Assembly: GCA_043814545.1 (NCBI GenBank) | Contig: JBDRJY010000004.1 | Span: 10,788-74,787, forward strand | Length of the DNA stretch: 64,000 nt | Origin: an archaeon | GTDB taxonomy: Archaea; Nanobdellota; Nanobdellia; SCGC-AAA011-G17; GW2011-AR17 | Direction of reading: 5' to 3' | Part shown: piece by piece, positions 24,457 through 60,295 of the stretch | How the letters are laid out: each line of letters begins with the position of its first letter | Position numbering within the stretch: position 1 is the stretch's first letter | Program-made: the position numbers and the translations under genes | The notes under the pieces: model-generated | Told to the model about the DNA's origin: nothing | The model's input: only the letters and a program-made list of their open reading frames with translations | Database searches by the model: none

Positions 24457-25602
24457 TTATTTTCTTCTTATAGTATCAATATAAACTTGCATTGTACGTT
24501 TAGCAATAGCGTCCCAAGTATAAGCTTTAGCTTTTTTCATATTAGCTTCAGACATTTTTTTTGCCATAGAAGGATTATCTAAAATTTTTAAAATAGCTTC
24601 TTCGATTTGTGGAACGTTTCCGTACTTAATGAATAAACCATTTTCAGGATCTTTCATTTCGTAAGGGATTCCGTTCACAGGTGATGCAATGATGGGTAAC
24701 CCTGAAGCCATTGCTTCGAATAAAGTTAAAGGCAAACCTTCTCTGTAACTTGGTAGAACATAAACATCAGCAGCTTGATACATTTCTGCAATATTTTTTT
24801 TACCAGATATTGCACCGGTGATATGAATCTTCGGATGTTTGTTTGCAATTTTTTTCAGTAAAGGTAAACGACCTTCATCTGGTCCGACAAAAACAAAATC
24901 AATATCTTTACGTTTTTTAAGAATATTTTGTGCAGCTATTGCTAAATGTTCAGGACCTTTTGTAGGATTTAATCGGCCAAAGAACAAAACCATTTTATTT
25001 TTTATTCCTAATTTTTTTTTATAATTGTTAGGTTTAATTTTTTCAAAAAGTATTTGATCCATTCCGTTAGGGATGACAACAATTTTTTTCTTGTTAACCC
25101 ATTTTTTTAAGGTAGGAACTTCCCAAGGGGTGATTGCAATGATTTTGTCTGTCATCGCAAATGCTAAACGATTGAAAATAATATTCGTGAAAAACAACGG
25201 TATCTTCACCTTCCACGGTCTGAACGCGTCTGTCCACGGACAATGTGTGGTATGAACATGTGCTGTACCTTTTAATCGGGAAACTAATCCTGCAAATAAA
25301 ACATAAGCGTGTCCGCCGACGTGAGAATGTATAACATCAAACTGATACTTGGACAACTGCCATAACAAACCGGGCCAGATAAAAGTACTTAAAGATAATC
25401 TGAACCAATAGCTAGACCGATGTACATGAACACCGTTAATAATTTCTTCCTTATTTTTAATTCTTTTATACTTGTCAGAATCACAACAGAACATATGCAC
25501 TTCATGCCCTTGTTTAACATACCGCTCAGCTAATTCTTGGATAACAACTTCAACGCCACCGAAGGTAGGCGTATAAAACATACTAACAAAAGCAATCTTC
25601 AT
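24457..25602 (-). CDS. Glycosyltransferase family 4 (GT-B)
   Basis: C-terminal E-x7-E region REGLPLTLFEAMASGLPIIASPVNG and an N-terminal GGVEV motif. 4-nt overlap with the upstream radical SAM gene. Confidence 0.88.
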   Translation of the reverse strand: MKIAFVSMFYTPTFGGVEVVIQELAERYVKQGHEVHMFCCDSDKYKRIKNKEEIINGVHVHRSSYWFRLSLSTFIWPGLLWQLSKYQFDVIHSHVGGHAYVLFAGLVSRLKGTAHVHTTHCPWTDAFRPWKVKIPLFFTNIIFNRLAFAMTDKIIAITPWEVPTLKKWVNKKKIVVIPNGMDQILFEKIKPNNYKKKLGIKNKMVLFFGRLNPTKGPEHLAIAAQNILKKRKDIDFVFVGPDEGRLPLLKKIANKHPKIHITGAISGKKNIAEMYQAADVYVLPSYREGLPLTLFEAMASGLPIIASPVNGIPYEMKDPENGLFIKYGNVPQIEEAILKILDNPSMAKKMSEANMKKAKAYTWDAIAKRTMQVYIDTIRRK

Positions 25603-27149
25603 CCTTTATACCTCATTTTATCGTACCATAATTTAAAGCCGGTAGGCATTTTCCTATACAAAGGTTTGGCAACAGTTTCTCGAACATAATCTTTCGCCCA
25701 AATGTTATAACCGACAAAGAAAGTAGGCCCTTTATGTTTTAAGTTAAATTTAATCATTTTATCATTTAACAAAATCGGCATAAGCTTAGCAGGAATAATA
25801 CCATACTTTTTTTTATTAGCAGTGCCACGCATCATGTTTAAAACTAAATCTAAATATGCATTCTTATTTTTACGCCGAATATGTTGCCATCTGTCCCAAT
25901 AGTTTAACTCTGACGACGGATCTTTACCTTCAGCAGTAACAAAACCGTCGCGAATAGCTTTCTCGTGTAAAGGTGTACCTTCAAAGAAAATTAAATTATT
26001 TACTGATAAGAAAAAAGGTTTAGGCAATTTTAAAATCACGTTTATTGTTGCAAGAACATCTTCCCATTCTTCATATGGATTGGTGGCAATGATATCATAC
26101 ATTACAGTCAATTTATCTTTGAACAGATTAATATTCTCGGCACATTTTTGAACTTGTGCAGATTTCAAATGCCGTTTGTAAACATCTCTATTTAACCTGT
26201 CACTCCCTGATTGTATACCAATGATAATATCTGTAAGGCCAGCATCAACCATGACTTGCAGTTTTTCTTTAGCAGATTCCAAAGAACCACTCGCAGGCTC
26301 AGCCAAACATTTAAACCTGATACCAACTTCAGCTTTGTACCGCCCACAAAATTCTTTAATCCATTCAGTGCTACGAATTAAAAAAGATTCGTCACGAATA
26401 TCAAAGAATCCAATAGAAGGAAACTTTTCTTTTAACCTAACTAATTCTTTGATAACATAATCAACAGAATGAGTTCTAAATATTTTACGATTTTTACCTT
26501 TATACAACTCTCTTATGATATGATTGGTACAATACGTGCATGCTTGTGGACAACCTCTTCCTGTCTGGAAAAAAATCATACCTGCTAAATGTTTTTCTTG
26601 GAACTGTATTAACTTACCACTTTCTAAGATAAACTGATCTTCAAGATTATAATCGGGATGTGCTAAAATATCTAAATTTTCAGGTGCTGCACGTACACCA
26701 TTTTTAATAATTTCATCACCTTTCCTAACCCAGAAATTTTTAACATGAGTAATATCTTCTTTATTTTCTAACTTTTCAGCTAAGTCTACGAAAGCTTCCT
26801 CGCCTTCTCCTCGGCAAATAATGTCACAATATTTTATGCAATCTTCAGGGAAAAATGTCGGGTGCGGTCCACCCCAGACAGCAGGGATATCATGTTTAAC
26901 AAAAATTTTAATCAACTGTTCGGCACGTTTAGTTGTTGATGCCATCGCGGTTATGCCTGCCAAATTATAATCTTTAAACTTATCTTCAATTTGTTTTAAA
27001 ACAGAATCTGAATAAATTTCAGTATAATCTTCAGAGAGAGGTAAAAAAACTAAGTTAACTTTATGCCCTGCACGTTTCAAACACGCCGATAAAGTACGTA
27101 AACCTTGGTCAGCAGGAAAAGTGCTAGTGGAAAACAATACAATCTTCAT
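25599..27149 (-). CDS. B12-binding-domain radical SAM protein (class B-like)
   Basis: N-terminal Rossmann-like domain (KIVLFSTS...LSACLKRAGHKV...GGPHPTFFPE) followed by GRGCPQACTYC (CX3CX2C). Confidence 0.88.
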   Translation of the reverse strand: MKIVLFSTSTFPADQGLRTLSACLKRAGHKVNLVFLPLSEDYTEIYSDSVLKQIEDKFKDYNLAGITAMASTTKRAEQLIKIFVKHDIPAVWGGPHPTFFPEDCIKYCDIICRGEGEEAFVDLAEKLENKEDITHVKNFWVRKGDEIIKNGVRAAPENLDILAHPDYNLEDQFILESGKLIQFQEKHLAGMIFFQTGRGCPQACTYCTNHIIRELYKGKNRKIFRTHSVDYVIKELVRLKEKFPSIGFFDIRDESFLIRSTEWIKEFCGRYKAEVGIRFKCLAEPASGSLESAKEKLQVMVDAGLTDIIIGIQSGSDRLNRDVYKRHLKSAQVQKCAENINLFKDKLTVMYDIIATNPYEEWEDVLATINVILKLPKPFFLSVNNLIFFEGTPLHEKAIRDGFVTAEGKDPSSELNYWDRWQHIRRKNKNAYLDLVLNMMRGTANKKKYGIIPAKLMPILLNDKMIKFNLKHKGPTFFVGYNIWAKDYVRETVAKPLYRKMPTGFKLWYDKMRYKG

Positions 27150-27841
27150 TTTTTCACTCTATATTTTAGTAATAAGTATAAGGCGTATACACCATCTTTC
27201 CAGTTAATCTTTTTACCTTCTTCAATGCTACGCGGTTTGTAAGTGATAGGTACTTCATATAACTTAAACCCTTTCTTTAAAATCTTTGCTGTAACTTCAG
27301 GTTCAAAATCAAAACGTTTAGACTCTAATTCAATATTTTGTAACACATGACTTTTGAAAAGTTTATAACACGTTTCCATGTCAGTGATTGATTGGAAATA
27401 TAAGATTGATGTCATGAAACTTAAAAGATAATTTCCTAAAGCAAAATGTCTATAACTGACAGGATTGTTTTTGTTCAAAAATCTAGAGCCGTAAATTACG
27501 TCAGCATTTTTATTTTTCATAGCTTCAATTAATTTACCATACTCGTTAGGATCATATTCTAAGTCGGCATCCTGGACAATGACTAAATCACCTGTACAAT
27601 GTTTAAACCCTTTCAACAAAGTAGCACCTTTGCCTTGGTTAAATTTGTTAAAAAAAACTTTAACATTTTTATGGTTGATTTTTTTTAATATATTCTTACT
27701 ATTATCAACAGAACCGTCATCAACAATGATAATCTCTTTAGATATTTTATTAGGCAATTTAACTTTAAGAACTTCGTTAACGACCTCTTTCAAAGTTCTT
27801 TCTTCGTTATATACTGGAATAACTATAGATAGTTTATTCAT
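27146..27841 (-). CDS. Glycosyltransferase family 2 (polyprenyl-phosphate sugar synthase-like)
   Basis: LSIVIPVYNEE, VDDGSVDNS and VQDADLEYDP motifs. Soluble Dpm1/GtrB-like catalytic domain. Confidence 0.88.
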   Translation of the reverse strand: MNKLSIVIPVYNEERTLKEVVNEVLKVKLPNKISKEIIIVDDGSVDNSKNILKKINHKNVKVFFNKFNQGKGATLLKGFKHCTGDLVIVQDADLEYDPNEYGKLIEAMKNKNADVIYGSRFLNKNNPVSYRHFALGNYLLSFMTSILYFQSITDMETCYKLFKSHVLQNIELESKRFDFEPEVTAKILKKGFKLYEVPITYKPRSIEEGKKINWKDGVYALYLLLKYRVKK

Positions 27842-28307: not shown

Positions 28308-30704
28308 ATGAGAGGTATTCTACCTAAGCTTGGCTATATATTGTTAATAATTATGTTAGTCATGGCTTTCACTGGTGGCTTATGGATGAACTATACAGAG
28401 CTGGTAGGAAATAAAGACATTGTTTATTTTTCAACAGCAAACAGGTTTTTCACAAACGCAGCTTTTGACGAATTTGGTGAACGGCCGTTATGGAACCCGA
28501 ACATCTTTGGTGGTCAACCTTTAATGTCTAACGTGTTAACGGGCCAATTTTTTCCGGTAAACTTATTTTTTATGCATTTTTACGAAGATTATTACATGAA
28601 CTTTGTTTACATTTTTCATATGATAATAGCGGGACTCTTAATGTTCTGGTTTTCTAAAAAATTAAAACTTAGCAACTTTGCATCAAGCGTGTCAGCAATC
28701 GTATACATCTTTTCGTGGAACTTTACTTTACTTTTCCAGGCAGAACCTGCACCGATTGTTGTTTGTTCTTTGATACCAGGAATATTTTTGGCAGCACAAT
28801 ATCTTTTTGAAAAAAAGAAACTTGTTTACGCTTTGATTTTGGGAAGTGTATTAGCTTTACAGTTTTTGGCTGGTCATGTCCAATACTTTTTTTATAGTAT
28901 GTTAGCACTAGGATTATTCCTTATTTACCATTTTTACTTGGAATGGAAAGACAACACGCCGCAGAAATGTTTGAACGTTTTAGGATTATTCGCTATTGCT
29001 ATAATCTTTTTTATTACATTATCAGCTGTACAGTTGTTACCGTTAGCAGAATTTTCTAGCTTTTCCGAAGGAAGAGGTCCTAATGCAGATTTAAGTTTTG
29101 CAGCGCAGGAATCATTACCTTATCAGCATTTAGTTAACTTAATATTACCAGAATTTTTCGGGTCAAGGTTTACTGATACATACTGGGGCACGCCAAGTAA
29201 CATGTTCCATTTTTATATGGGAATTTTACCTTTGATATTAGCATCGTTAGCAGTCTTATTTTCAAAACGTAAATACAAATGGTTTTTTGCAACATTAGCA
29301 CTGTTAGCTTTACTTTTCAGTTTAGGAAAATATTTTGTAGTATTTCCTATGTTATATTATTTGCTACCAGGTATAGATTTCTTTAAAGTTCCTGCAAGGA
29401 TGTTAATAATTTTCACATTTTCAATGTCGATACTGGCGGGTATGGGTGCAAGTTATGTAATGTCAAAAATTTATAACGCTAGACAATATACAAAATTTAT
29501 TAAAATTTTATTTATTTTATCAGTTTTAACTTTAATTGGCGCTTTAATTTTAGCGTATAACAAAGAATACATTTTATTTTTAGGTGAAAGATTATTGAAT
29601 CATTTTTATTATGTTAAATACGCTGATACATTGTTAGTGCAATCTAACACGTTCGAATATTTCTTAGGAAAATTAGAACTTGTATATTCACAAATTTTTA
29701 ACAGTGTTAGTATTTTCTTGTTCTTGTTTACATTGAGTACAATTATTTTAGGTTTAAGAATGAAAAACCTGAACAGGAATATCTTAAAGTTTGCAATAAT
29801 CGGTTTAATCATTTTAGATTTGTTAATCTTGGTACCGTTTTATCCCTGTTGGGACATTATGCGTCAAGGTGGGTTTGCTGGTCAAACAACTGAAGAGATT
29901 TTATCGCCGACTATAGAGTTTGATTTTCTTTTGGAAGACGAATCTATGTTTAGGATACATGAGTATGCAGTTCATCCAATTATACCTTCCTATTTGGCGA
30001 CAAGAGTAGGTTTGCAAACAATAAGAGGTAGTGAATCATTAAAGTTACAATACTTTGGCGAAGTTTTAAACGAACTTATTGATGATTACACGACTGATTA
30101 CAATGCTAAGATATTGGGTTTGTTGAATGTGAAATACATTTTCTTTAAAGAAAATATTGAACAAGAAGGTTTAACTTTTGTAGAAAGTTTTGAACACACT
30201 TATTATTATTATACAGATGAACAACCAGAACTAGGTTACTCTTATGTTTACGAAAACGATTTGTTAATGCCGAGAGGATTTATAGTTTCTGATGCAAAGG
30301 TTATTACAAACGCTGAAGAAATTAAGGAAGAGTTGAAAGAGTTTGACCCGAAAGAATATGTCATTTTGGAAGAAGACTTTGAATATTTAGACAACGATGC
30401 TTTGTATAAGGAAGCTGTTATAACTTATTACTCTCCGAATAAAGTGATAGTAAATGTTAACATGGACTCGCCAGGTTTTTTAGTTTTGGGAGATACATGG
30501 TACCCTGGTTGGGAAGCATATGATAATGGAAAAGAAACAAGGATTTTCAAAACTAATTATGTTCAAAGGTCTGTTTATTTAGGAGAAGGTGAGCATGAAG
30601 TAGAATTCGTTTTCAATCCGTTAAGTTACAAGATTGGCTTTTTGTTGACTTTTTTATCTTTACTAGTTCTGTTAATTTATTTAGGTTCACTTGCTATAAT
30701 GTAG
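28308..30704 (+). CDS. YfhO-like polytopic membrane glycosyltransferase (GT-C fold candidate)
   Basis: 798 aa with more than 12 TM segments. C-terminal globular part with LGDTWYPGWEAYDNGKE...FKTNY, the YPGW-x-A-x-DG signature I associate with the YfhO family, plus a terminal TM. Confidence 0.65.
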   Translation: MRGILPKLGYILLIIMLVMAFTGGLWMNYTELVGNKDIVYFSTANRFFTNAAFDEFGERPLWNPNIFGGQPLMSNVLTGQFFPVNLFFMHFYEDYYMNFVYIFHMIIAGLLMFWFSKKLKLSNFASSVSAIVYIFSWNFTLLFQAEPAPIVVCSLIPGIFLAAQYLFEKKKLVYALILGSVLALQFLAGHVQYFFYSMLALGLFLIYHFYLEWKDNTPQKCLNVLGLFAIAIIFFITLSAVQLLPLAEFSSFSEGRGPNADLSFAAQESLPYQHLVNLILPEFFGSRFTDTYWGTPSNMFHFYMGILPLILASLAVLFSKRKYKWFFATLALLALLFSLGKYFVVFPMLYYLLPGIDFFKVPARMLIIFTFSMSILAGMGASYVMSKIYNARQYTKFIKILFILSVLTLIGALILAYNKEYILFLGERLLNHFYYVKYADTLLVQSNTFEYFLGKLELVYSQIFNSVSIFLFLFTLSTIILGLRMKNLNRNILKFAIIGLIILDLLILVPFYPCWDIMRQGGFAGQTTEEILSPTIEFDFLLEDESMFRIHEYAVHPIIPSYLATRVGLQTIRGSESLKLQYFGEVLNELIDDYTTDYNAKILGLLNVKYIFFKENIEQEGLTFVESFEHTYYYYTDEQPELGYSYVYENDLLMPRGFIVSDAKVITNAEEIKEELKEFDPKEYVILEEDFEYLDNDALYKEAVITYYSPNKVIVNVNMDSPGFLVLGDTWYPGWEAYDNGKETRIFKTNYVQRSVYLGEGEHEVEFVFNPLSYKIGFLLTFLSLLVLLIYLGSLAIM

Positions 30705-32069
30705 AACACGTTTCATTAACCAACCTAATTGTGCAAATTTAATATCTTTCATAAGTCCCCACATTATCCTTGGCCGTGCATAAAATTTAAACTGTGCTTG
30801 AGAATAAAACTTTGTAAGCTCTTTATCACTTAACCCCTCTAATTTTCTATATGTTGAATGTTTAAAATAATCCATTGCTGACCAATCAATATTATCTAAG
30901 TCGATTACACCATTTTTGACATTTTCTTTAAATATTTGCGAACCAGGCATTTCTGTAAAAACAAAAAATCCTGCTCTGTCTAACGGTAACGATAATGCAA
31001 AGTCAATTGTTTTCTGGATAGTTTCCTTGGTCTCATTTGGAAAACCTAATATGAAAAATCCGGCAGTTTTTATTCCGTACTTTTTCAATAACTTAATTTT
31101 TCCAGGAATAATTTTCAAGTTTAATCTTTTATGTATAGAGTTTAAAATTTCTTGGCTACCTGATTCGATGCCTAGGCATAACGAATAACATCCAGACAGT
31201 TTCATTTTCTTAACCAGTTCTTCATCTAAGGAATCAATACGTACACCGTTAGGACAACTCCAATGAATCTTTAGCTTCCGTTTAAGAATTTCATTACAGA
31301 TTTGTACAGCCCTCTCCCTAATCATCGTCATATTATCATCAATGAACTGTATTTCTTTAACGCCGTAAGTTTTAACTAAGAACTCTATTTCGTCAACAAT
31401 ATTTTTCGCACTACGTGTTCTAAATGTAACGCCCCATACGTTGTTACTTGAACAATAACTGCATTGATAAGGACAGCCTCTAGAAGTTAACACTTGTGCG
31501 ACTGGGAACTCTTTATACACAGTACCTTGCGGAGCTTTTGGATAACACTGTGGATTCATTTTGTCCCATGCAGGCATTGGAAGTTCGTCTAAATATTTTA
31601 TCAAAGGCCGTCGAGGATTTTGTTTAACTTCCTTTTCGTCCCAATAAATCAAGTTTTTTATCTTTGAAACATCTTCATTATTTTCTAATTTGTTAACAAG
31701 TTCTAACATTGCATATTCACCTTCACCGTTAACACCATAATCAGCTTTGGTTTCTTTTAATGAATATATTGGCAATGCTGACACATGCGCTCCTCCGATC
31801 ACAACTTTAATGTTATCTTTTTTTAACAATTCAATAACTTTTTGCACATTGTAATAATAAGCAGTCATAATGTTAATTGCTACTAAGTCGGCTTTCGTAG
31901 CCTTAATTTTTTCAACAGTCTGTTCGATTGTTAATTGATCTTTGATAGCGTCAATTAGAAAACATTGATGATTATTCTTCTCTAAGACAGCTATCATATA
32001 ACCTAATCCTATTGGCGGTGTTACCATATGCATGTCTTTGTATGGCGGATTAACAAAAGTAATTTTCAT
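30687..32069 (-). CDS. B12-binding-domain radical SAM protein (class B-like)
   Basis: KITFVNPP...PPIGLGYMIAVLEKNNH...GGAHVSALP, then SRGCPYQCSYC. Confidence 0.88.
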   Translation of the reverse strand: MKITFVNPPYKDMHMVTPPIGLGYMIAVLEKNNHQCFLIDAIKDQLTIEQTVEKIKATKADLVAINIMTAYYYNVQKVIELLKKDNIKVVIGGAHVSALPIYSLKETKADYGVNGEGEYAMLELVNKLENNEDVSKIKNLIYWDEKEVKQNPRRPLIKYLDELPMPAWDKMNPQCYPKAPQGTVYKEFPVAQVLTSRGCPYQCSYCSSNNVWGVTFRTRSAKNIVDEIEFLVKTYGVKEIQFIDDNMTMIRERAVQICNEILKRKLKIHWSCPNGVRIDSLDEELVKKMKLSGCYSLCLGIESGSQEILNSIHKRLNLKIIPGKIKLLKKYGIKTAGFFILGFPNETKETIQKTIDFALSLPLDRAGFFVFTEMPGSQIFKENVKNGVIDLDNIDWSAMDYFKHSTYRKLEGLSDKELTKFYSQAQFKFYARPRIMWGLMKDIKFAQLGWLMKRVLHYSK

Positions 32070-32233: not shown

Positions 32234-33586
32234 ATGTTGCCTAAGAATTTTAAAATTGCTGTAATTAATGTTACTAATAAGAAGAAAAAATTTGCAATTA
32301 ATAAAGATCTGAATGGAGGATTTGGTACGGCCGATTCTTATTCAGGTACTATTTACGAACATTTAATTAAACTTATTAAAAAAAAGTCTATAAAATTGCC
32401 AATTTTATCCTTGGCTTATTTAATGGGAATATTCAAATATAAAAATTTAAATGCGAGGTATTATGAAGGAAGATTTCCTAAACAAAAATATGATTTAATT
32501 TTGATTTATGGTTCTATTGTCGATTACAAATATGAAAACTTTGTTGCTCATGCTTTAAAAAAACGTTTTAAGAAAGCGAAAATAGGATTTATTGGACCTT
32601 TCCCTTCTGTCAAACCTGATTTGTTTAAAATGGGAGATTTTGTTATTTTGGGAGATTTTGAACATTTTTTTCTAAAAGAATTTAAAGATTTGAACCAGCT
32701 TAACGGTAAAATTTTAGTAAAAGAAAAATTGAACTTAGACGACTTACCTTGTCCTGAATTAGAAGGTTTTCCTATTAAGGAATATAGCTATTACCCTGCA
32801 ATAACCAAGAAACCATTTTTTGCGTTACAGAGTTCTAAAGGTTGTCCTTATAGTTGTTCTTATTATTGTGTTTATGGTGCTTTCCAAGGCAGTAAGGTTT
32901 TTGTTAGGTCTCCTCGAAAAGTCGTCCAGGATATTATTTATCTTCAAAAAAAATATAAAATGAAAGGTTTTCAATTTAGAGATCCCACTTTTGGTATTAA
33001 AAAAGATTACATAGAACAATTCTGTAACGAACTTAAAAAGAATAAGGTAAAAGTAGAATGGGGCATAGAAACAAGAATTGATCTTTTAGACAAGAAAAAA
33101 ATAAAACTTATGTTTGATACGGGATTAAGAAATATCAATATTGGAATTGAGACTGTTTCTTTAGAAATCGCCAAGAAAAACAAACGTTTAATGACAAATA
33201 TGAAACAACAAGAAGAATTTATAAAATATTGTGAAGACTTAGGGATTAAAATATCTGCTTTTTATCTTCTTGGTTATGAAGGAGATACAAAGGAAACTAT
33301 GGGGGCTGTTTTAGATTATGCAAAAAAATTGAATACATTTCTTGCAAGGTTTGCTGTATGTACACCTTACCCCGGAACTAAATTTTTTGAAGATTTAAAA
33401 AACAAAGATAGAATTTTGACTTTTGATTATGAAAAATATACCCAATTCAACTTGGTTTTTAAACATAATTCTTTAACTAATAAAGATATAAAAAAGATGC
33501 TTTCTAAATCATATAAAGAATATTATTTTAGATTAGATTATATATTGAGCTTGGTAAAATGGAAAATAAGAGAGTTTTGGTTATAG
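32234..33586 (+). CDS. B12-binding-domain radical SAM-like protein with variant CX3CX3C motif
   Basis: Same architecture as its paralogues, but the cluster motif reads SKGCPYSCSYYC (32843-32869), one residue longer between Cys2 and Cys3. Confidence 0.72.
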   Translation: MLPKNFKIAVINVTNKKKKFAINKDLNGGFGTADSYSGTIYEHLIKLIKKKSIKLPILSLAYLMGIFKYKNLNARYYEGRFPKQKYDLILIYGSIVDYKYENFVAHALKKRFKKAKIGFIGPFPSVKPDLFKMGDFVILGDFEHFFLKEFKDLNQLNGKILVKEKLNLDDLPCPELEGFPIKEYSYYPAITKKPFFALQSSKGCPYSCSYYCVYGAFQGSKVFVRSPRKVVQDIIYLQKKYKMKGFQFRDPTFGIKKDYIEQFCNELKKNKVKVEWGIETRIDLLDKKKIKLMFDTGLRNINIGIETVSLEIAKKNKRLMTNMKQQEEFIKYCEDLGIKISAFYLLGYEGDTKETMGAVLDYAKKLNTFLARFAVCTPYPGTKFFEDLKNKDRILTFDYEKYTQFNLVFKHNSLTNKDIKKMLSKSYKEYYFRLDYILSLVKWKIREFWL

Positions 33587-34410
33587 GTGGAACAGGATAT
33601 ATCGGAAAAGAGATTGTAAGGTTGCTTAGATCTAAGAATTATGAAGTATTTGTTTTATCTAAACAACCAGGTAATGGCCCTTTTTATTTAGAAGGGAGCG
33701 TTTTGGATAAATCTTTTTTGCTTGATAATCTGATTGATTTTGATATTATCATTTATTTGGTTTCAATAATAAGAACTTTGGACAAATCTAAATATAAAGA
33801 AAATGTTCTTGGATTAAAAAATACTTTAGAAGTAATGAAAACAAATAATATTAGTAAAATAATTTATTTTTCGACCCAAAATATTTTTCTTAAGAACACA
33901 GGTGGGTATGGTAACTCTAAAAAGTTTGCAGAAAAAATAATAAAAAATAGTTCTTCAGATTATATTATTTTAAGGCCTAATTATGTATATGGTATTGATA
34001 AAAATAATGATATTTATAGATTATATAACATAATAAAAAAAACAGGAATTTGCCCCGTAATTGGTTCTGGTGAAACAAAATTTCAACCCGTCAATAAAAC
34101 AGATATTGCTGAATTCATTTTAAAGAAATTAGAAAAATGGAAAGGTAAAAATGAAGTAAATATCTCTGGTCCTGATACATCTATTAACCAAATAATTAGA
34201 ATAATCAAACAAGAGACTAAGCTTGGTTTTATAAAGATTCATATCCCTTTCTCGTTACTCAAGATTTTCAAATTTTTAATACCTTTTGATGTTGATGGTT
34301 ATAATGAAGATAGGATTTCTAATTCAAATACTGTTAAATATGATACAGATCTAAGGGAAGATATAAAATCTATGGTTAGATTGGATAGAATTAAACATAG
34401 AAAATATTAA
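33559..34410 (+). CDS. NAD-dependent epimerase/dehydratase (extended SDR)
   Basis: VIGGTGYIGKEIV (GxxGxxG) and YGNSKKFAE (YxxxK). 28-nt overlap with the preceding radical SAM gene. Confidence 0.8.
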   Translation: MENKRVLVIGGTGYIGKEIVRLLRSKNYEVFVLSKQPGNGPFYLEGSVLDKSFLLDNLIDFDIIIYLVSIIRTLDKSKYKENVLGLKNTLEVMKTNNISKIIYFSTQNIFLKNTGGYGNSKKFAEKIIKNSSSDYIILRPNYVYGIDKNNDIYRLYNIIKKTGICPVIGSGETKFQPVNKTDIAEFILKKLEKWKGKNEVNISGPDTSINQIIRIIKQETKLGFIKIHIPFSLLKIFKFLIPFDVDGYNEDRISNSNTVKYDTDLREDIKSMVRLDRIKHRKY

Positions 34411-36451: not shown

Positions 36452-36853
36452 TCATTCCTCATTATTGGCGGTATTTAAAATTTGTGCATTATGGTATATA
36501 TCCCCATTTAATTTCGTGCAAGCATCTGCTATTTTGTTAAAAATCATATAACTTGATGGTATTGCAACTGACATCCATCCAAGTATTCCCCAGACTTCTG
36601 GATACCCTTGCCATAATATTGGTGAAAGATATTCATCAATGCAAAAACCCGCACCAATTGTTACACTAGCTAAAGCATAAATAAGAGACTGTGTTTGTAT
36701 TTCATCTCTTAAACTTAATTTTTTATTAACAATTTCTTTTTGATTATGTGCCCCATATTTTAGACAAAAAGAATCTTCTTTAATTTCTTGTTCTGTGGGG
36801 AATATAAAACTTTGGAACGATATTTTGTTTATCATTTTAAAGCCTGCATCCAA
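36452..36853 (-). CDS. Small membrane protein, unknown function
   Basis: 133 aa with two or three hydrophobic segments. Lies between the GT4 and SPASM genes on the same strand. Confidence 0.45.
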   Translation of the reverse strand: MDAGFKMINKISFQSFIFPTEQEIKEDSFCLKYGAHNQKEIVNKKLSLRDEIQTQSLIYALASVTIGAGFCIDEYLSPILWQGYPEVWGILGWMSVAIPSSYMIFNKIADACTKLNGDIYHNAQILNTANNEE

Positions 36854-49959: not shown

Positions 49960-51384
49960 ATGGCTAAGGTACTTTTCGTACAAGATATTGACCTGGAATT
50001 TGTAGGTATACAGACATTATCAGCTTGTTTGAAAGCTAAAGGACATAAAACCGATTTATACTCGGCTAATTCTGTAAAAAAACAAGATGAACTTTTCGAT
50101 TATGTTAAAAAAACCAAACCTGACTTGGTAGCATTTTCTATACCTTCAATGGGTTACGAATGGACAGTTGATTTAGCTAAGAAAATAAAAAAAGAATTAA
50201 ATGTCTATAGCGCCTTTGGCGGCCCACACCCAACTTATTACCCTGACTTCATTGAAACGAAAGGGGTAGAGATCACTTGTGTTGGTGAAGGCGAGGGAGC
50301 CATGGTAGAATTGGCTAATGCTTTAGAAAAAAAAGATTTTAATAAAATTAAAACAATAAAAAATATTTATTACAAAGATGATAAAGGTAAGATATATAAA
50401 AATGAGTTAAGAGATTTGATAGACGTTGATTCTTTACCTTGGCCAGACAGAGAGTTACATTACAAAATGTTTCCTCATATTCAAAACTTTTCTAACAAAA
50501 GAGTTGTTGCAACTAGGGGCTGTCCTTACAACTGTTCGTTTTGTTTTAACACTATGTATAAAGAGATGTATCAAGGGAAAGGAAATTATATTCGTAGAAG
50601 AGATCCTAAAAAAATCATTGAAGAAATTAAGTATGTAAGAGATCATTACGGTTTCAAAACTTTATCTTTTGCTGACGAGAATTTCACGACTAACAGAAAA
50701 TGGTTGTATCCTTTGTTAGACATGTACAAGAAAGAAGTAGGCATACCGTTTATGGTTCTTGGTAGGTTTAACGAGATTGACGACGAACTTGCTAGGAAAT
50801 TGAAAGAAGCTGGTTGTTTTTTCATAAGCGTTGGCTTGGAAAGCGGTAACGATTATATCAGAAACAAGATTTTGAATAAGGGTGTTACTAATGCACAGAT
50901 TATCAAAGGCGCTGCTGCGATTAAGAAGTACGGTATTGGATTGTTTACATATAACATGTTAGGCTTACCTCATGAAACTATTAAGGAAGCGTTTGAAACT
51001 TTAGAATTAAATGCGAAGATTGGCGTTGACGTTACTATTCCTACTTTGTTACAGCCTATTAAGGGAACTAAGTTGTGTGACTATATCGAGAAGAATGGTT
51101 TGTTAGCTAAAGGTTTTGACTTAGAACATTTGAAAAGTCATTGGCAAGGTGTTACAGTTAAAACTCCGCATGCTAGACAGATTGAAAACTTACAAAACTT
51201 GTTCATGTTAGGAATATGGTATCCAAAACTAATTCCATTAATGAAAATCTTAGTATATGCACCAAAAAATCCGTTGTATAAAGGTTTCTTAAACTTTAGC
51301 TTGTTAATGAAATATCGTCAAACACGAATGTTAGGATGGTTCGAGTTAATTACAATGGCGTGGAAAGCTAGGAAGAATGTTTGA
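49960..51384 (+). CDS. B12-binding-domain radical SAM protein (class B-like)
   Basis: KVLFVQD...LSACLKAKGHKT...GGPHPTYYPD, then TRGCPYNCSFC. N-terminus most similar to the 25599-27149 paralogue. Confidence 0.88.
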   Translation: MAKVLFVQDIDLEFVGIQTLSACLKAKGHKTDLYSANSVKKQDELFDYVKKTKPDLVAFSIPSMGYEWTVDLAKKIKKELNVYSAFGGPHPTYYPDFIETKGVEITCVGEGEGAMVELANALEKKDFNKIKTIKNIYYKDDKGKIYKNELRDLIDVDSLPWPDRELHYKMFPHIQNFSNKRVVATRGCPYNCSFCFNTMYKEMYQGKGNYIRRRDPKKIIEEIKYVRDHYGFKTLSFADENFTTNRKWLYPLLDMYKKEVGIPFMVLGRFNEIDDELARKLKEAGCFFISVGLESGNDYIRNKILNKGVTNAQIIKGAAAIKKYGIGLFTYNMLGLPHETIKEAFETLELNAKIGVDVTIPTLLQPIKGTKLCDYIEKNGLLAKGFDLEHLKSHWQGVTVKTPHARQIENLQNLFMLGIWYPKLIPLMKILVYAPKNPLYKGFLNFSLLMKYRQTRMLGWFELITMAWKARKNV

Positions 51385-51385: not shown

Positions 51386-51688
51386 TTACCAACTATCTCT
51401 TTTACTTCTGTAGTCTTCGCCTTTTACTTCAGCACTAACTAGAATTCCTTGGAGTCTTGATAAAAGTCTTCCTTCTTCTACTCCTGCTGTATCATTACCA
51501 TAACCAACTGCAAAAAATTCTGAGGGACTTAAGTTTGATGTAATAATTGCTGCAAGATTTTTCCCTGATTGAATATTTTCAATTTTTTTTATTAATTTTT
51601 GTACATTCTGTGGTCCTTTTTCATGTTTGAACTTAATCAAAAACAACTCTTTTTTGTTCTTTCTTTTCTGAATAAGTGTAAGGTACAT
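51386..51688 (-). CDS. Hypothetical small protein (start uncertain)
   Basis: The ORF overlaps the end of the YgiQ gene by 56 nt if the ATG is used. A TTG at 51638-51640 would give an 84-aa product with an 8-nt overlap. No motif recognised. Confidence 0.4.
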   Translation of the reverse strand: MYLTLIQKRKNKKELFLIKFKHEKGPQNVQKLIKKIENIQSGKNLAAIITSNLSPSEFFAVGYGNDTAGVEEGRLLSRLQGILVSAEVKGEDYRSKRDSW

Positions 51689-53129
51689 AAATTTTTTCTT
51701 TAGTTTTAGGATTAAGACCTGTATAATACATACAAGTTGAAACTGTCATTGGGGTGGGTGTAAATATTTGCACTTTTTCTGCATTATGCATATGTTTAAT
51801 TTCTCTTGCTAATTCTCGGGCTTCTTTCATAGAAGAACCAGGATGTGCAGTCATAAAATAAAACGATAATTTTCGGCCAGTTTGAGTAAAATCTTTAATA
51901 AATTTTTTAAGGTTACCTCGGTCTTTATTCATTAATTTTAATACATTTGGATTTACATGCTCCGGAGCAATTCTAAGGGTGTTAAAAGTATGATACTCGC
52001 CAATTTCTTTAACCAGTTCTGGCGAAGCTAAATCAAACCGAATCCCGCTTCGTATATTTATTTTTTTAACGCCTTTTATTTCTCTAGCTTTTCTTAACAA
52101 GTTAATTAATCTTTTATTACTTTGGTCTAAGATTTTACAATCAATACAATCTTGGTTACATCTGTTACAATCCATTCCATACATGTTAGCAGAAGCTCCC
52201 CCTAAGTCGTCAATGTTACCTTTGAAATGCGGTAATTTTGTAATCTTTTTGATTTCTCTGAATATTGACTCTTCACTTCTTGAGATTATTCGATCACCTT
52301 GTATTAAATTAACAGAACAGAAATTACATTTGCCTATACATCCTCTATGACTGACAACACTAAACTCAAATCCTCTCAATTCTTTAGGAGTTTTTCTAGT
52401 AAATGGTAATTCATAATATTCGTCCAGGTCTTTAGGTTTGTAAACTGGACTTTTATATTGTACTATGTACCGGTTATCGATTTTTTGAATTAAATTTTTA
52501 TTATTGCTTAACATATTTTGCATATCACAAAACTTTTCTTTTGAGTTAGACACTTCTTCATAACTTGGTAATTCTTCTATCTTAGATACTTGATTTAGAA
52601 TCATACAAGTACCTTCAATTTCGTCTAACGATTTATTATCTTTAATCCTTTGAGCAATTTCAACTATTTGTTTTTCAGCGTTACCATATGCTAGAATATC
52701 TGCTCTGGTATCGAACAGTATAGGTTTCCTTAACCGATTTTGCCAGTAATCATAATGTACAAACCTTCGCAAACTAGCTTCAGTCCCTCCTAAAACAACG
52801 ATAGACCCTCGGAACTTATGTTTGATCCAGTTTGTGTAAACAGTTATCGCTCTATCAGGAACAGTTTCATTATAATCAACATAATCATCTTCAGTTCTTA
52901 GTTTCTTTAACGGTGTATAATTACGAACCATAGAATCAATACTTCCAGATGTTACTCCAAAAAATAGTTTAGGTTTACCTAACGTGGTGATTTCTTCTTC
53001 TACCTTAGGTTTTTCGATAATGCCTACTTTAAACCCTTTTTTTTCTAACAATCTTTTCAGTATAGCAACTCCGCAAAGAGGGTGGTCGAAGAAAAGTTCT
53101 CCTGTAACAAAGATAATATCATATTCCAT
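51633..53129 (-). CDS. YgiQ-family (UPF0313) radical SAM protein
   Basis: N-terminal YDIIFVTGELFFDHPLCGVAILKRLLEKKGFKVGIIEKP (YgiQ N-domain signature) and SHRGCIGKCNFC. Confidence 0.82.
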   Translation of the reverse strand: MEYDIIFVTGELFFDHPLCGVAILKRLLEKKGFKVGIIEKPKVEEEITTLGKPKLFFGVTSGSIDSMVRNYTPLKKLRTEDDYVDYNETVPDRAITVYTNWIKHKFRGSIVVLGGTEASLRRFVHYDYWQNRLRKPILFDTRADILAYGNAEKQIVEIAQRIKDNKSLDEIEGTCMILNQVSKIEELPSYEEVSNSKEKFCDMQNMLSNNKNLIQKIDNRYIVQYKSPVYKPKDLDEYYELPFTRKTPKELRGFEFSVVSHRGCIGKCNFCSVNLIQGDRIISRSEESIFREIKKITKLPHFKGNIDDLGGASANMYGMDCNRCNQDCIDCKILDQSNKRLINLLRKAREIKGVKKINIRSGIRFDLASPELVKEIGEYHTFNTLRIAPEHVNPNVLKLMNKDRGNLKKFIKDFTQTGRKLSFYFMTAHPGSSMKEARELAREIKHMHNAEKVQIFTPTPMTVSTCMYYTGLNPKTKEKIYVPYTYSEKKEQKRVVFD

Positions 53130-53194: not shown

Positions 53195-54649
53195 TTATTT
53201 CTTATAATAAACCACTCTAGCAAGAATAGATTTAGCACCTTTGACAACACGTGCAATTTCTTTCAAATTTTTACACCGTTTCAAGTTTTGTATAATAACA
53301 CCTGGTGAAGTGTAATAAGACAAGTAAGCTTTACGTATAACGCCAGATAGTTCTTCTTTACTCAAATGTTCAGTTTTTAAAATCTGACCTTGTGTACCGT
53401 CTAAGTCTGAATAAGAATTAATATCTAACAAACCTTTCTGCACAGCTTCGTCATAAAATTTTGTACCTGGGAAAGGTGCTGCTAACGTAAATTGTACAAA
53501 ATCAGCTTTCAACTTCTTAGCAAAATCAAGAGTAGCTTTAATAGTCTCTTTATTTTCTGGAGGTAAACCAAAAACAAAACTACCACTTGCAACTAAACCA
53601 TGTTTTTGGGTAATCTTTACAGCTTTCAACATTTGATCTTTAGTGATATTTTTGCCAATAGATCTTAAAATAATTGGAGAACCAGATTCAAAACCAAAGA
53701 ATATCTGTGTACATCCAGCTTTTTTCATAATTTTCACCATATCTTCGTCGGTAGTATTAACGCGTCCCATACAAATCCAAGGAATTTTAATCTTACGTTT
53801 TATAATTTCGTTACACATTTCCAACATTCTATCTTTGGTTAAAGCAAAAGTATCGTCGTCAAAGAATAAGGAATCAATATTATGTTCATGCAACAAATAT
53901 TCAATTTCATCAACAACAGATTTAGCTGACCTTTGCCTATACTTATGCCCGCTAGTTGTCTCGGGCCATAAACAAAAGCTACACTGGTATGGGCAACCTC
54001 TACTAGACAATAATACACCTGTTCTTTTCCCACAGAAAAAAGCCATTTGATAATCTTCAATACGAAAATCATTTCTATCTGGGTAAGGTAATTCGTCTAA
54101 GTTTTCAATGAACGGCATCTTATCGTTAATAATAATGTTGCCATTACTTTTGTTTCGCCAAGTAAGACCTTTAACTTCTTTTAATGACGTATTATCGCGC
54201 ATAGCTTTACACAAATCACAAAGGGTAGCTTCAAACTCGGCTTGCACACAACCGTCGACAAAACTATAATTTTTCATAATATTTTTATGGTCAAAACTCA
54301 CATGCGATCCACAAAAAACTAAAAATGTTTCAGGCAATCGTTCTTTTAATTTACGAGCAGTTTCAAGATCATAATTCAACGAAGGTGTAGAAACTTCCAT
54401 AACAACAACATCTGGTTTAAACTTTTCCATTTTTTTAACAAAATCAAAAATGCCTAATTCTTTTTCTACAGCATCCAAGCCTAAAACTTCAAAACCTTCT
54501 TTTTTAAGAACAGCACTTGTGTAGGCTAAGTACAAAGGAAAAATTAAATGTTTATCTTTACGCTTATGCGGCCACCTAACATTACTCCTGGCTCCAATCC
54601 CTCCGCCTGGCCACGGCGGATTTGTCACAGCTACTTTAATGTTTGACAT
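53195..54649 (-). CDS. B12-binding-domain radical SAM protein (class B-like)
   Basis: Rossmann-like N-domain (VVVMEVSTPS...FCGSHVSF), then SRGCPYQCSFC. 14-nt overlap with the upstream paralogue. Confidence 0.88.
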   Translation of the reverse strand: MSNIKVAVTNPPWPGGGIGARSNVRWPHKRKDKHLIFPLYLAYTSAVLKKEGFEVLGLDAVEKELGIFDFVKKMEKFKPDVVVMEVSTPSLNYDLETARKLKERLPETFLVFCGSHVSFDHKNIMKNYSFVDGCVQAEFEATLCDLCKAMRDNTSLKEVKGLTWRNKSNGNIIINDKMPFIENLDELPYPDRNDFRIEDYQMAFFCGKRTGVLLSSRGCPYQCSFCLWPETTSGHKYRQRSAKSVVDEIEYLLHEHNIDSLFFDDDTFALTKDRMLEMCNEIIKRKIKIPWICMGRVNTTDEDMVKIMKKAGCTQIFFGFESGSPIILRSIGKNITKDQMLKAVKITQKHGLVASGSFVFGLPPENKETIKATLDFAKKLKADFVQFTLAAPFPGTKFYDEAVQKGLLDINSYSDLDGTQGQILKTEHLSKEELSGVIRKAYLSYYTSPGVIIQNLKRCKNLKEIARVVKGAKSILARVVYYKK

Positions 54650-56054
54650 TTTTAATCATTTGTAACGGGCTAATATGACTGCCAACTAACTGGTAAAAAC
54701 CACGAACCCTCCTTTGCATTTCATAAGGAGAACGTAACGCGCCTTTAAATTGATTCGCTATATATCCTGGACGCAAATAAAATTCGCGTAAAAACTTTTT
54801 TTGCATCGCACGCACTTGTTTAGGCGTAAAATCTTTAGTTTCAATTACACCTCTAAACATAAAATTAAGCTCTTCCCAGTTAAATTCTTTCTGTTTACCT
54901 ACTTTCAAAGCCATGTCACACAATTCTGTTTTAGGGAAAGGTGTCGCAATGCTAACTTGGATAGCGTCAGGCTCAATTTCTTTAGCAAACCTGATAGAAA
55001 CTTCCATATTACGCAAAGTTTCACCAGGCATACCGACGATAAACGTTGTATGGGTAAATATTCCTACTTCTTTACATAATTTAATTGCTTTACGAATTTG
55101 GTCGAGTGTAATGCCTTTCTTATGATATTTGTTAAGAACTTCTTGAACCCCGCTCTCAACACCGAAAGAAATTGAAACGCAACCGCCTTCTTTCATTTTA
55201 GCAAGTAATTCTTTGTCAACAAGATTAACACGAGTGTTACAACCCCATTTTATCTTAAGCTTACGTTTTTTAATTTCAGATATCAGATCTAAAACCCATT
55301 GCCTATTAGTAGTAAGAGTATCGTCGTTAAACAAAATACCTTTAACACCATAATCTTTAATCAACATTTCAATTTCGTCAACATAGTTGGAAGGGCTACG
55401 TTGTCGAACTTTCCGACCATAGTTTAAATTGGTAGCACAAAACGTACAATTGAACGGGCAACCTCTACTGCCGAGAACAGTTGTTGAAGGTCGTGGAAGA
55501 ATCCAGCTTGAACGTCCAATACTATATTTCAAATATTTATTCATTGGCAACAAATCTCTAGCTGGGAAAGGTAAATCATCCAAATTTTCAATCAACTTTT
55601 GTTGTTGAGTATAAACAATCTTACCATTTTTCTTATAATAAATGCCATCAACTTCACTTAGGTTAGTTCTATTTTTCAAAGCTTTAACAAGCTCAACCAT
55701 TACTTCTTCACCTTCGCCTTTAACAATAATGTCAAAACCGTAATCAAAAGTTTCTTCAGGCAATGCAGACGGGTGAGAGCCTCCAGCGACGAACACTGCG
55801 TTCGGTGCAATAGACCGTAAACTTTTAACCAAATCTTTTAGATCTTTAATCATATCTGTAAGAATCCCAATACCAATAATGTCAGGTTTTTTTTCTTGAA
55901 CCATTGCAAACAATTTCTCTTTAGTCATGTCAAAAGAACAATCAATCAAATCTACATCAAGACCATTCTCACGCATGTAAGATGCCAAGTACGTTAATCC
56001 TATCGGCGGACTGCTGAAAGGCCAAAATCTTGGATAAATTAAAAGAGTTTTCAT
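54636..56054 (-). CDS. B12-binding-domain radical SAM protein (class B-like)
   Basis: KTLLIYPR...PPIGLTYLASYMRENG...AGGSHPSALPEE, then SRGCPFNCTFC. 4-nt overlap with the carbamoyltransferase gene. Confidence 0.88.
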   Translation of the reverse strand: MKTLLIYPRFWPFSSPPIGLTYLASYMRENGLDVDLIDCSFDMTKEKLFAMVQEKKPDIIGIGILTDMIKDLKDLVKSLRSIAPNAVFVAGGSHPSALPEETFDYGFDIIVKGEGEEVMVELVKALKNRTNLSEVDGIYYKKNGKIVYTQQQKLIENLDDLPFPARDLLPMNKYLKYSIGRSSWILPRPSTTVLGSRGCPFNCTFCATNLNYGRKVRQRSPSNYVDEIEMLIKDYGVKGILFNDDTLTTNRQWVLDLISEIKKRKLKIKWGCNTRVNLVDKELLAKMKEGGCVSISFGVESGVQEVLNKYHKKGITLDQIRKAIKLCKEVGIFTHTTFIVGMPGETLRNMEVSIRFAKEIEPDAIQVSIATPFPKTELCDMALKVGKQKEFNWEELNFMFRGVIETKDFTPKQVRAMQKKFLREFYLRPGYIANQFKGALRSPYEMQRRVRGFYQLVGSHISPLQMIKNVKH

Positions 56055-57748
56055 TTGCGTTTTGTTACAACCCAGTTACCCATTACAAGAATGTCTACTG
56101 TCCCTTTGTTGAACGAGTTTAAACCATTCTCTGGCGTATGTATTATTGGTTCTTCGTGAGAGTTAAAGCTAGTGTTAACAAAGATTGGTAATCCACTTTC
56201 ACGTTGATACTGTTGTAGGATTTTGTAATACCTAGGATTTTGGTTTTTACTTACAACTTGTGGTCGAGTAGTATTGTCAACGTGTACAACAGCTTTAGCT
56301 TTTTGAGCAATTTTTGTATCGTCAAAAGTAATTGTCATGAATTGTGCTGCATATTTAGACCTTGCATAGTTTTCATAATACTTTGGCGCAGCTGTGTCTA
56401 ATATTGACGGAGCAAACGGCATGAACTCGGTACGATGTAAACGTTCATTTAACCATTTGTTAATTGTTTTATCTTGTGGATCAGCAAGGATACTTCTATT
56501 TCCCAAAGCTCTTGGACCAAATTCCATTTTACCGTCGAAATGTCCAATAATTTTTTTCTTTGTAAGCATTTCTCCTATATACTTTTCAATATTTTTTATA
56601 TACTCTCCTTTCATATTTTTGTCAGTAATAGCTTGTTCAATCTCAGAATTTGTAAAACCTGTTCCAAAATAAACATTGTCTAGCTTGTATGGCATAAGAC
56701 CTTTACCTTTATGTGCCATTGCACGACCTGCAACATATAATGCAGCGCCAGCACCAAGACCACCATCACCCATGTGTGGATGAATGTAAACAGACTTAAC
56801 ACCTTTAGCTTCAGCTATTCTTTGATTAATTTTTACGTTAGCAAACAAACCACCTGCAAGCATAACATCTCCTAAACCAGTTTTTTTAACATACTCTTCA
56901 ACAAATTTGGTTGTAACATCTTCACTACGTTTCTGGATAGCTGCAGAATAATCTTCTTTTGAATAAGGCTTTAACTCTTTTCTTAAATGTTTGATTGCAT
57001 CTTCACCAATCATTCCTAGCTGGTTATATGGAGAATTGGTTTTTGTTGAATATCCAAAACAGTTTTTGAATACGTCATAACATTTATCAGGGTTACCGTA
57101 CGCAGCAAGCCCTGTAATCTTACCTTCATGTTTAAACATTTTAAACCCTGCAATTAATGTAATGTATGCGTAATAATAGGCAACAGAGTTTAAAGTAGGC
57201 ACAGATTTTATTTTTTTCAAAACACCATCTTTACCAACATAGACAGTTGAACTTAAACCGTCGCCAGACCCGTCGGATGTAATAACTAAAGCATTTTTCT
57301 TTCCACCAGTGTAATATGCACAAGCTGCGTGACATAAATGATGGTCAACATAAACTACTGGTGCATCAATGCCCAGAGAACGTACATAAGTTTCAGTATC
57401 TTTTGGTCTTAATGCTGTGAAAACTTGTCTTTGCATTTTAGCAAACTTTTGCGATCCTGCTACAGCGGGAAATCGTTTAGCAACTTGCTGATAAACTTTT
57501 TTTCGTGAGGAGACATCTGTCCAACCTAAAGAAGCAACCATTCCAGACGTCGCTGCAATTGCAACTTTGTCAATTTGTCCATGTTCAATTTTTGTAAGTT
57601 TCAGTACAGACTTGATACTTTCTTTTGGAAGACCTGTGTACAATTTCTTACGAACAATACGTTCTTCATTTATTGCGGCTATGATTTTACCATTTTTTAT
57701 TATAGCAGCACCTGCATCGTGCCCGTCTGTTATTCCTAGTACTATCAT
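56051..57748 (-). CDS. Carbamoyltransferase (NodU/CmcH/TobZ family)
   Basis: MIVLGITDGHDAGAAIIKNGKIIAAINEERIVRKK N-terminus (ASKHA-like), HHLCHAACAYY, HPHMGDGGLG, and a C-terminal YrdC-like half (FGPRALGNRSILADP, NTSFN). Confidence 0.9.
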   Translation of the reverse strand: MIVLGITDGHDAGAAIIKNGKIIAAINEERIVRKKLYTGLPKESIKSVLKLTKIEHGQIDKVAIAATSGMVASLGWTDVSSRKKVYQQVAKRFPAVAGSQKFAKMQRQVFTALRPKDTETYVRSLGIDAPVVYVDHHLCHAACAYYTGGKKNALVITSDGSGDGLSSTVYVGKDGVLKKIKSVPTLNSVAYYYAYITLIAGFKMFKHEGKITGLAAYGNPDKCYDVFKNCFGYSTKTNSPYNQLGMIGEDAIKHLRKELKPYSKEDYSAAIQKRSEDVTTKFVEEYVKKTGLGDVMLAGGLFANVKINQRIAEAKGVKSVYIHPHMGDGGLGAGAALYVAGRAMAHKGKGLMPYKLDNVYFGTGFTNSEIEQAITDKNMKGEYIKNIEKYIGEMLTKKKIIGHFDGKMEFGPRALGNRSILADPQDKTINKWLNERLHRTEFMPFAPSILDTAAPKYYENYARSKYAAQFMTITFDDTKIAQKAKAVVHVDNTTRPQVVSKNQNPRYYKILQQYQRESGLPIFVNTSFNSHEEPIIHTPENGLNSFNKGTVDILVMGNWVVTKRK

Positions 57749-57760
57749 TTTTTTCTCCTT

Positions 57761-58642
57761 TTATTTTCTGTGCATGTCGGCCAAAAATCCAAACAAAAGA
57801 ATTTGTATGCCGACTGTTATTAATAGAATAGCAAGTAACAATGAAGGTAAATGCCCAATTGTTCCAGTTGTGAAAAATAGGAATAAAAGCCAAAGTATTA
57901 CAAAAGATCCTAAAGCGAAAAAAGTTCCTCCGAAAAGTCCGAAAAACTTTAACGGTTCATAATCCCTATATATTCTGAAAATGTTAATCCATGCTTTGAT
58001 AGCATAATCGAATGGTCCTTTCATTAAACGGCTTTTACCGCCACGTCTTGCAAAATAAGCAGGAACTTCTTTAATATGAAATTTATTTTTGACAGTCCTA
58101 ATAATTTGTTCTTGAGTATATGTGAATGTAGAAGTAATTTGAACTTTTTTTGCAACTTCTTTTGTAAACGCTCGAAATCCAGTTTGTCCGTCGCTGATTG
58201 GTGTTTGTGTAATATGTGTTAAAACTTTTGAGAACGCAATGTTTCCCATGCGTTTTAGTAAAGGCATATGTTCAATCTTACCTTTAAACCTTGAACCAAG
58301 AACTAAATCATATCCATTTTCAATTTCTTTTAGGAGCTTAGGGATTTCTGAACTGAGATATTGTCCGTCTGCATCTGTGTGCACAAAAACATCACAGTCT
58401 GATTCAATGAAAAGTTTCATCTCGGTCCGGAACGCTTCAGCAAGTCCACAGTTTCTGGGATGCCTAAAAACTTTTGCACCATGGTCCATTGCAATTTTAT
58501 ACGTAGCATCTCTAGAACCATCATCTACTACAAGAACATTATACTTATACTTGGATTTTTTCATAACAGTATGAATATCATCCAGAACTCTACCGATAGT
58601 CCTTGCTTCGTTAAACGCCGGAATTGAAATTAGAACTTTCAT
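57761..58642 (-). CDS. Glycosyltransferase family 2 with C-terminal TM helices (GtrB/Dpm1-like)
   Basis: ISIPAFNEA, VVDDGSRD and HTDADGQY motifs, then two hydrophobic helices at the C-terminus. Confidence 0.88.
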   Translation of the reverse strand: MKVLISIPAFNEARTIGRVLDDIHTVMKKSKYKYNVLVVDDGSRDATYKIAMDHGAKVFRHPRNCGLAEAFRTEMKLFIESDCDVFVHTDADGQYLSSEIPKLLKEIENGYDLVLGSRFKGKIEHMPLLKRMGNIAFSKVLTHITQTPISDGQTGFRAFTKEVAKKVQITSTFTYTQEQIIRTVKNKFHIKEVPAYFARRGGKSRLMKGPFDYAIKAWINIFRIYRDYEPLKFFGLFGGTFFALGSFVILWLLFLFFTTGTIGHLPSLLLAILLITVGIQILLFGFLADMHRK

Positions 58643-58666
58643 GTTTGCTCGTTTACTACTCCTTGT

Positions 58667-60295
58667 TTAAATATTTTTGTATATATGTATACCATTTTCT
58701 GTTTCTTTTATAAGAGGGAGAGACAAATCTTTTTTTGTTACCACATAGTCAATATTTTCTAAATTATTTATGTTACTTATGATAACATTATCGTTTAACC
58801 AAAATCCTATTATGGTTGATTTAACATTTCTTTGATGTAATTCGTAAAGAGAATCTTGTTCAGTTTTTGTCAACACACCTTCATAATCTTCGTCAAATAA
58901 AATGTTCGAATATTCCTGATCATAATCATTGAACCATAAACCTAACTGAGTGTGTTCTGTAGGTAACCAATAAGTTTGTGAATTGTAATATGTTCCAGCA
59001 ATGTTAACACAACTGAAACATAAGAAATATGTAAATAATATTATTGGAAACAGTTTCATCATTTTTAGTTTATGCGCCAAATATGCATCGAGCAAAAGGA
59101 AAAATATGAGAGTTACACTACCTAGTAAGAGAGGTATTCCTAAATATTTAAAAATTAAGTTAGACACGCCTAGCCAAACTAACGACATGTTATTTATCGG
59201 AAACATTTGGAAATAAATCAAAAAACTTCCTGTTAAAGCTAAAACTGCCGGAACAAAATAAGGCAAATATTTTTTCTTTTTATAATTTTGGTAACCAATC
59301 ATACCTCCAATGACAAGTAAAGGTAAAAGAACTTCCACATACCTTCCAACAGATCGATAAAATTCGCCCAGTTCCAAATCGCTTGTATTCAAGGCATGAA
59401 CATTATGGTTAGCTGCAACAAACAAAACTAAACCTAATACTAAAACAAACATTAGCATGAAAACTTTTAATTTTTTATTTTTTGTTTTTAGATTTAACAA
59501 ACTGAAAGCGAAAAGCACAACGCCTGACGATAATACTAAGTAAGCTAGGTATAAAACAATCCACGTAAGAAATACATAAAGGTTTCCTGAATTAATTGAA
59601 ACAATTTCAGCGGAATACCCTCCAACAATAGAAGTTTTTCCAATGTACCAAGGTAAAACTGTTAAAAAACAAACAAGACCCATTAAAACTTTTTTAACTG
59701 ACTGTTGCCAGGATAAGTTAAACAAAAACATTAAAATTACTAAAGGAACCAAAACGATTCCTAAAGTTTTAGTTAAATAAGTTAAACCGATGAAAACACC
59801 TGCAAACAAGTCCCAATATCTAGCGTTAGATGTAAAAGATTTATACACAAAATAAATGGAAAACATGAACAACGGATAAAACAAGTTTTCTGCCATTAGA
59901 AATGAACTAAAAGCAAAAGTTGAAGGTAAAACCCCTACCAACATTGCTGTAATAAAAGATTTTTTCGTACTAAGAAACTCTTTAGCTAAAAGATAAGTTG
60001 GAAATATAATAGAAGTGGATAATAAAACATTAATCACTTTCATAACGAGGTATACAACAGTCATGTCATTAAACAAATAACTTATAGAAAGGAACATTGC
60101 GTATATTGGCGGATAAAAATAAACAGGCGTACCATAAACTAACATTTGTCCAGTATGAAAAAAGTTTTGTGCCATCTCAGCATAAATGTATCCATCACTG
60201 AAAGCAGATGGTGCTGGTATAAAATATACTAAAAGACTTTTTAGCAACACAAACACTATATACAGAATAATAATGTTAACAACACTCTTTTTCAT
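58667..60295 (-). CDS. GT-C fold membrane glycosyltransferase (ArnT/PMT-like)
   Basis: 542 aa with more than 10 TM segments. First-loop acidic motif FSDGYIYAEMAQNF. C-terminal soluble domain. Directly upstream of the GT2 gene on the same strand. Confidence 0.7.
   Translation of the reverse strand: MKKSVVNIIILYIVFVLLKSLLVYFIPAPSAFSDGYIYAEMAQNFFHTGQMLVYGTPVYFYPPIYAMFLSISYLFNDMTVVYLVMKVINVLLSTSIIFPTYLLAKEFLSTKKSFITAMLVGVLPSTFAFSSFLMAENLFYPLFMFSIYFVYKSFTSNARYWDLFAGVFIGLTYLTKTLGIVLVPLVILMFLFNLSWQQSVKKVLMGLVCFLTVLPWYIGKTSIVGGYSAEIVSINSGNLYVFLTWIVLYLAYLVLSSGVVLFAFSLLNLKTKNKKLKVFMLMFVLVLGLVLFVAANHNVHALNTSDLELGEFYRSVGRYVEVLLPLLVIGGMIGYQNYKKKKYLPYFVPAVLALTGSFLIYFQMFPINNMSLVWLGVSNLIFKYLGIPLLLGSVTLIFFLLLDAYLAHKLKMMKLFPIILFTYFLCFSCVNIAGTYYNSQTYWLPTEHTQLGLWFNDYDQEYSNILFDEDYEGVLTKTEQDSLYELHQRNVKSTIIGFWLNDNVIISNINNLENIDYVVTKKDLSLPLIKETENGIHIYKNI

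What the first reader, a model, noticed from the sequence alone, without database searches (positions are those of the whole stretch)
24457..60295. 36-kb glycan or lipid modification island with an exceptional density of radical SAM enzymes
**Content**
- Ten radical SAM genes lie within 35.8 kb. By ORF coordinates they total 13,119 nt, about 37% of the island.
- Six have an N-terminal B12-binding-type Rossmann domain: 25599, 30687, 32234, 49960, 53195 and 54636.
- Two are SPASM-like (35420, 41786), one is YgiQ (51633) and one is BioB-like (48237).
- They are interleaved, often with overlapping stop and start codons, with seven glycosyltransferases (GT4 x2, GT2 x2, GT9, GT-C x2).
- Also present are a Wzx flippase, a carbamoyltransferase, an SDR epimerase, a membrane methyltransferase, an FrhB-like protein and a CooS-like protein.

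**Why it stands out**
- The B12-type paralogues fall into at least two N-terminal sequence types. 25599 and 49960 share LSACLK.(K/A)GHK, while 30687 and 54636 share PPIGL.Y. They are therefore not recent tandem copies.
- Class B radical SAM enzymes perform C-methylations and other difficult C-C or C-H chemistry on sugars, lipids and peptides. GDGT ring synthases are one lipid-acting example of B12-domain radical SAM enzymes.
- Their operonic coupling to GT and flippase genes argues for heavily tailored cell-surface glycans or glycolipids.
- For a small, presumably cofactor-poor genome this is a large investment. It also implies dependence on external cobalamin, iron-sulfur assembly and a low-potential reductant.
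- I do not know of a characterised pathway with this composition.
Basis: partly seen in the sequence, partly recalled or inferred. Interest (0 to 1): 0.8.

Follow-up and report, generated by a model that had tools for sequence, protein, structure and literature searches.

The report
Radical-enzyme-rich surface sugar locus, DPANN archaeon
A tiny-celled (DPANN, Woesearchaeota-type) archaeon carries a 36-kb block of cell-surface sugar-building genes in which almost a third of the genes are radical SAM enzymes; the block is real, recurs across this lineage, belongs to no characterised pathway, and points to unexplored sugar chemistry (deoxy, rearranged, methylated and carbamoylated sugars) on these cells.

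Summary
There are ten radical SAM (rSAM) ORFs in 35.8 kb (36.6% of the bases), seven glycosyltransferases, a Wzx flippase, a carbamoyltransferase and the other listed genes.

Corrections:
- ORF 32234 has no significant Pfam B12-domain hit (E=0.33). It has an invariant CX3CX3C motif, and its model matches the cobalamin-free sugar diol-dehydratase AprD4 over the full length (TM 0.81).
- AprD4 is also the closest solved structure by sequence for four other 'B12-type' paralogues, so dependence on cobalamin is unproven.
- YgiQ, the CooS-like protein, the 2H phosphoesterase and the methyltransferase sit in segments absent from an 86% relative. They are variable cargo.
- The rSAM density is far above chance. 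It is not unique, though: related DPANN loci hold 4-7 rSAMs per ≤21 kb.

Best reading: a mosaic surface-glycan locus of a Woesearchaeota-type archaeon.
- It has a Wzx-dependent core.
- It has two decoration modules, each a GT2 polyprenyl-phosphate-sugar synthase plus a GT-C transferase.
- The rSAMs tailor the sugars. One pair is an AprD4-like rSAM plus SDR for deoxygenation. Another rSAM belongs to an HpnJ-related family that lies in polysaccharide loci of many phyla.

No equivalog cut-off is reached for any tailoring rSAM.

Verdict: new variant of a known kind, interest about 0.55.

The parts
24457..25602 (-). GT4 glycosyltransferase (GT4a). It is the last gene of the operon GT2a / class-B rSAM A / GT4a.
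   Evidence: Pfam Glycos_transf_1 127.9 bits and Glyco_transf_4. It overlaps the upstream gene by 4 nt.
25599..27149 (-). Class-B-type radical SAM A (B12-binding domain plus rSAM core). This is the most divergent paralogue.
   Evidence: - PF02310 55.2 bits and PF04055 51.2 bits.
- CX3CX2C at residue 200.
- The best NCBIfam hit is only 83 bits.
- The best PDB hit is TokK, and it is weak.
- Orthologues at 53% in L009 and 41% in L111 lie beside GT9 or GT4 genes.
27146..27841 (-). Short GT2 (231 aa), of the polyprenyl-phosphate-sugar synthase type (GT2a).
   Evidence: - PF00535 131 bits.
- The top NCBIfam hits are AglJ, ArnC and PgfS; Dol-P-hexose transferase and PpgS also match. All are below cut-off.
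- Orthologues of 40-54% identity lie within 4 kb of the 32234 family in 24 of 65 loci.
28308..30704 (+). YfhO-like GT-C membrane glycosyltransferase (798 aa, about 12 transmembrane segments).
   Evidence: - PF09586 28.9 vs 28.5 bits, C-terminal end only.
- 12 hydrophobic segments.
- A 782-aa YfhO protein follows the rSAM-SDR pair in L087-L089.
30687..32069 (-). Class-B-type radical SAM B.
   Evidence: - PF02310 69.4 bits and PF04055 77.9 bits.
- NCBIfam: Sden_1168 209 bits, HpnJ 200 bits, BchE 196 bits, all below cut-off.
- Closest PDB entry is AprD4, 89 bits.
32234..33586 (+). AprD4-fold radical SAM with an invariant CX3CX3C motif. It is the candidate sugar diol-dehydratase.
   Evidence: - PF04055 only. 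PF02310 gives E=0.33.
- The sequence GCPYSCSYYC is invariant in 16 family members.
- AF2 model pLDDT 91.2. The Foldseek top hit is AprD4 6FD2 with TM 0.81/0.81 and E 8e-26.
- The family is 48-73% identical among the 120 best of 244 hits, from Nano-, Woese- and Pacearchaeota, and none has a Pfam B12 hit.
33559..34410 (+). SDR (NAD-dependent epimerase/dehydratase family), translationally coupled to 32234. It is the candidate reductase partner.
   Evidence: - PF01370 63.6 bits.
- It overlaps 32234 by 28 nt.
- An SDR orthologue lies directly downstream in 22 of 65 loci, 17 of them with the identical 28-nt overlap.
34465..35430 (+). Purine nucleoside phosphorylase. It is in the same transcription unit, but membership in the pathway is uncertain.
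   Evidence: PNP_UDP_1 143.9 bits. PRK08202 248.8 bits, above the cut-off of 218.
35420..36448 (-). Radical SAM/SPASM enzyme 1.
   Evidence: - PF04055 86.7 bits and PF13186 63.3 bits.
- The best NCBIfam hit is the tungsten-cofactor maturase, 127 bits against a cut-off of 380.
- PDB hits to SkfB, CteB and PqqE are weak.
36452..36853 (-). Hypothetical 133-aa ORF between GT4b and SPASM-1.
   Evidence: No Pfam hit. No homologue in any fetched locus. It may not be a gene.
36832..37914 (-). GT4 glycosyltransferase (GT4b).
   Evidence: PF00534 124.5 bits.
37969..39114 (+). GT9 (heptosyltransferase-family) glycosyltransferase.
   Evidence: PF01075 109.7 bits. Conserved at 69% in L001, and GT9 genes recur in L003, L009 and L012.
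39102..40523 (+). Soluble (alpha/alpha)6-barrel plus beta-sandwich protein of a rare family with a carbohydrate-active fold.
   Evidence: - Only 64 representatives at E<=1e-3 among 1.84 billion proteins.
- Family members hit GH76, GH127, GH88 and C5-epimerase models weakly.
- AF2 model pLDDT 92.4. The Foldseek top hits are GH88, a polysaccharide lyase, 2-epimerases and GH76, with TM 0.5-0.6.
- It overlaps GT9 by 13 nt.
40509..41789 (-). FrhB-like flavo/iron-sulfur protein with an N-terminal 2x[4Fe-4S] ferredoxin domain. It is a candidate redox partner.
   Evidence: FrhB_FdhB_C 113.9 bits, FrhB_FdhB_N 66.3 bits and Fer4. It overlaps SPASM-2 by 4 nt. The pair is conserved in L001.
41786..42784 (-). 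Radical SAM/SPASM enzyme 2.
   Evidence: PF04055 82.4 bits and PF13186 35.7 bits. AhbD-like or PTO1314-like at about 85 bits, below cut-off.
42781..44286 (-). Wzx/MOP-family oligosaccharide flippase (14 transmembrane segments).
   Evidence: Polysacc_synt 101.8 bits, plus MatE and MurJ. 14 hydrophobic segments.
44330..45868 (-). CooS-like Ni-CODH homologue. It is variable cargo, not core.
   Evidence: - Prismane 348 bits.
- TIGR01702 339 bits against a cut-off of 478.
- PDB 6ELQ 306 bits.
- It lies in segment 44327-47577, which is absent from L001.
46318..47220 (-). Membrane-anchored class-I SAM methyltransferase, in the variable segment.
   Evidence: Methyltransf_11 90.9 bits. N-terminal hydrophobic segment. 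Absent at this place in L001. Similar methyltransferases recur in DPANN and bacterial loci.
47355..48266 (+). PF03706 (MprF-flippase-like / UPF0104) 7-TM protein. It is the candidate flippase for the lipid-linked sugar.
   Evidence: - LPG_synthase_TM 116 bits.
- TIGR00374 67.6 bits, above the cut-off of 43.2. HpnL gives only 21.5 bits.
- It lies directly after the HpnJ-like gene in L003, L009 and L012 (same strand), and in the same locus in L011 with a methyltransferase gene between.
48237..49244 (-). PRK06267 BioB/HmdB/PylB-like radical SAM with a CX4CX2C motif. Its role is uncertain.
   Evidence: PRK06267 305.2 bits vs cut-off 305. PF04055 35.9 bits and BATS 23.1 bits. Motif shown. Conserved at 83% in L001 and L002 only.
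49259..49870 (-). 2H phosphoesterase / DUF1045. It is variable cargo.
   Evidence: Pfam hits. The segment 49265-49915 is absent from L001.
49960..51384 (+). Class-B-type radical SAM D.
   Evidence: - PF02310 60.2 bits and PF04055 96.6 bits.
- HpnJ 116 bits, below cut-off.
- Orthologues at 90% in L001, 61% in L006 and 53% in L073.
- Closest PDB entry is AprD4, 56 bits.
51633..53129 (-). YgiQ-family radical SAM. It is variable cargo at a mosaic junction.
   Evidence: - TIGR03904 546 bits, above the cut-off of 462.
- The segment 51389-53201 is absent from L001.
- It is present in the 94% relative L172, which then diverges.
53195..54649 (-). HpnJ-related class-B-type radical SAM, member of a family found in polysaccharide loci of many phyla.
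   Evidence: - HpnJ 323 bits over the full length, against a cut-off of 577.6. All 15 family members tested stay below the cut-off.
- 305 relatives in GTDB representative genomes.
- A GT4 gene upstream and a GT2 gene downstream, on the same strand, recur (usually together, sometimes only one) in many bacterial loci and some Bathyarchaeota loci, and the family sits in multi-rSAM glycan clusters in DPANN.
- Closest PDB entry is AprD4, 104 bits.
54636..56054 (-). Class-B-type radical SAM F, with the strongest B12-domain hit of the six.
   Evidence: - PF02310 90.6 bits and PF04055 103.3 bits.
- BchE 239 bits and HpnJ 223 bits, below cut-off.
- Orthologues at 52-61% lie in the same loci as GT2b orthologues (adjacent or one to three genes apart) in L003, L004, L009, L011 and L012.
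56051..57748 (-). NodU/CmcH-type O-carbamoyltransferase.
   Evidence: Carbam_trans_C 195 bits and Carbam_trans_N 132.5 bits. NodU 104 bits, below cut-off. It recurs in L003, L004, L009, L090 and L091.
57761..58642 (-). GT2 with two C-terminal transmembrane segments, of the dolichyl/polyprenyl-phosphate hexose synthase type (GT2b).
   Evidence: - PF00535 80.3 bits.
- AglJ 154 bits, Dol-P-hexose transferase 119 bits and PpgS 96 bits.
- Transmembrane segments at residues 231 and 255.
- Orthologues at 52-63% identity in many DPANN loci.
58667..60295 (-). PMT_2 / ArnT-type GT-C membrane glycosyltransferase.
   Evidence: PF13231 48.9 bits, above the cut-off of 26.1. 10 hydrophobic segments. The pairing with GT2b is conserved in L001, L009 and L016.
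60329..60733 (-). Small 3-TM protein heading the PMT_2 / GT2b operon. Function unknown.
   Evidence: No significant Pfam hit. Conserved at 67% in L001.

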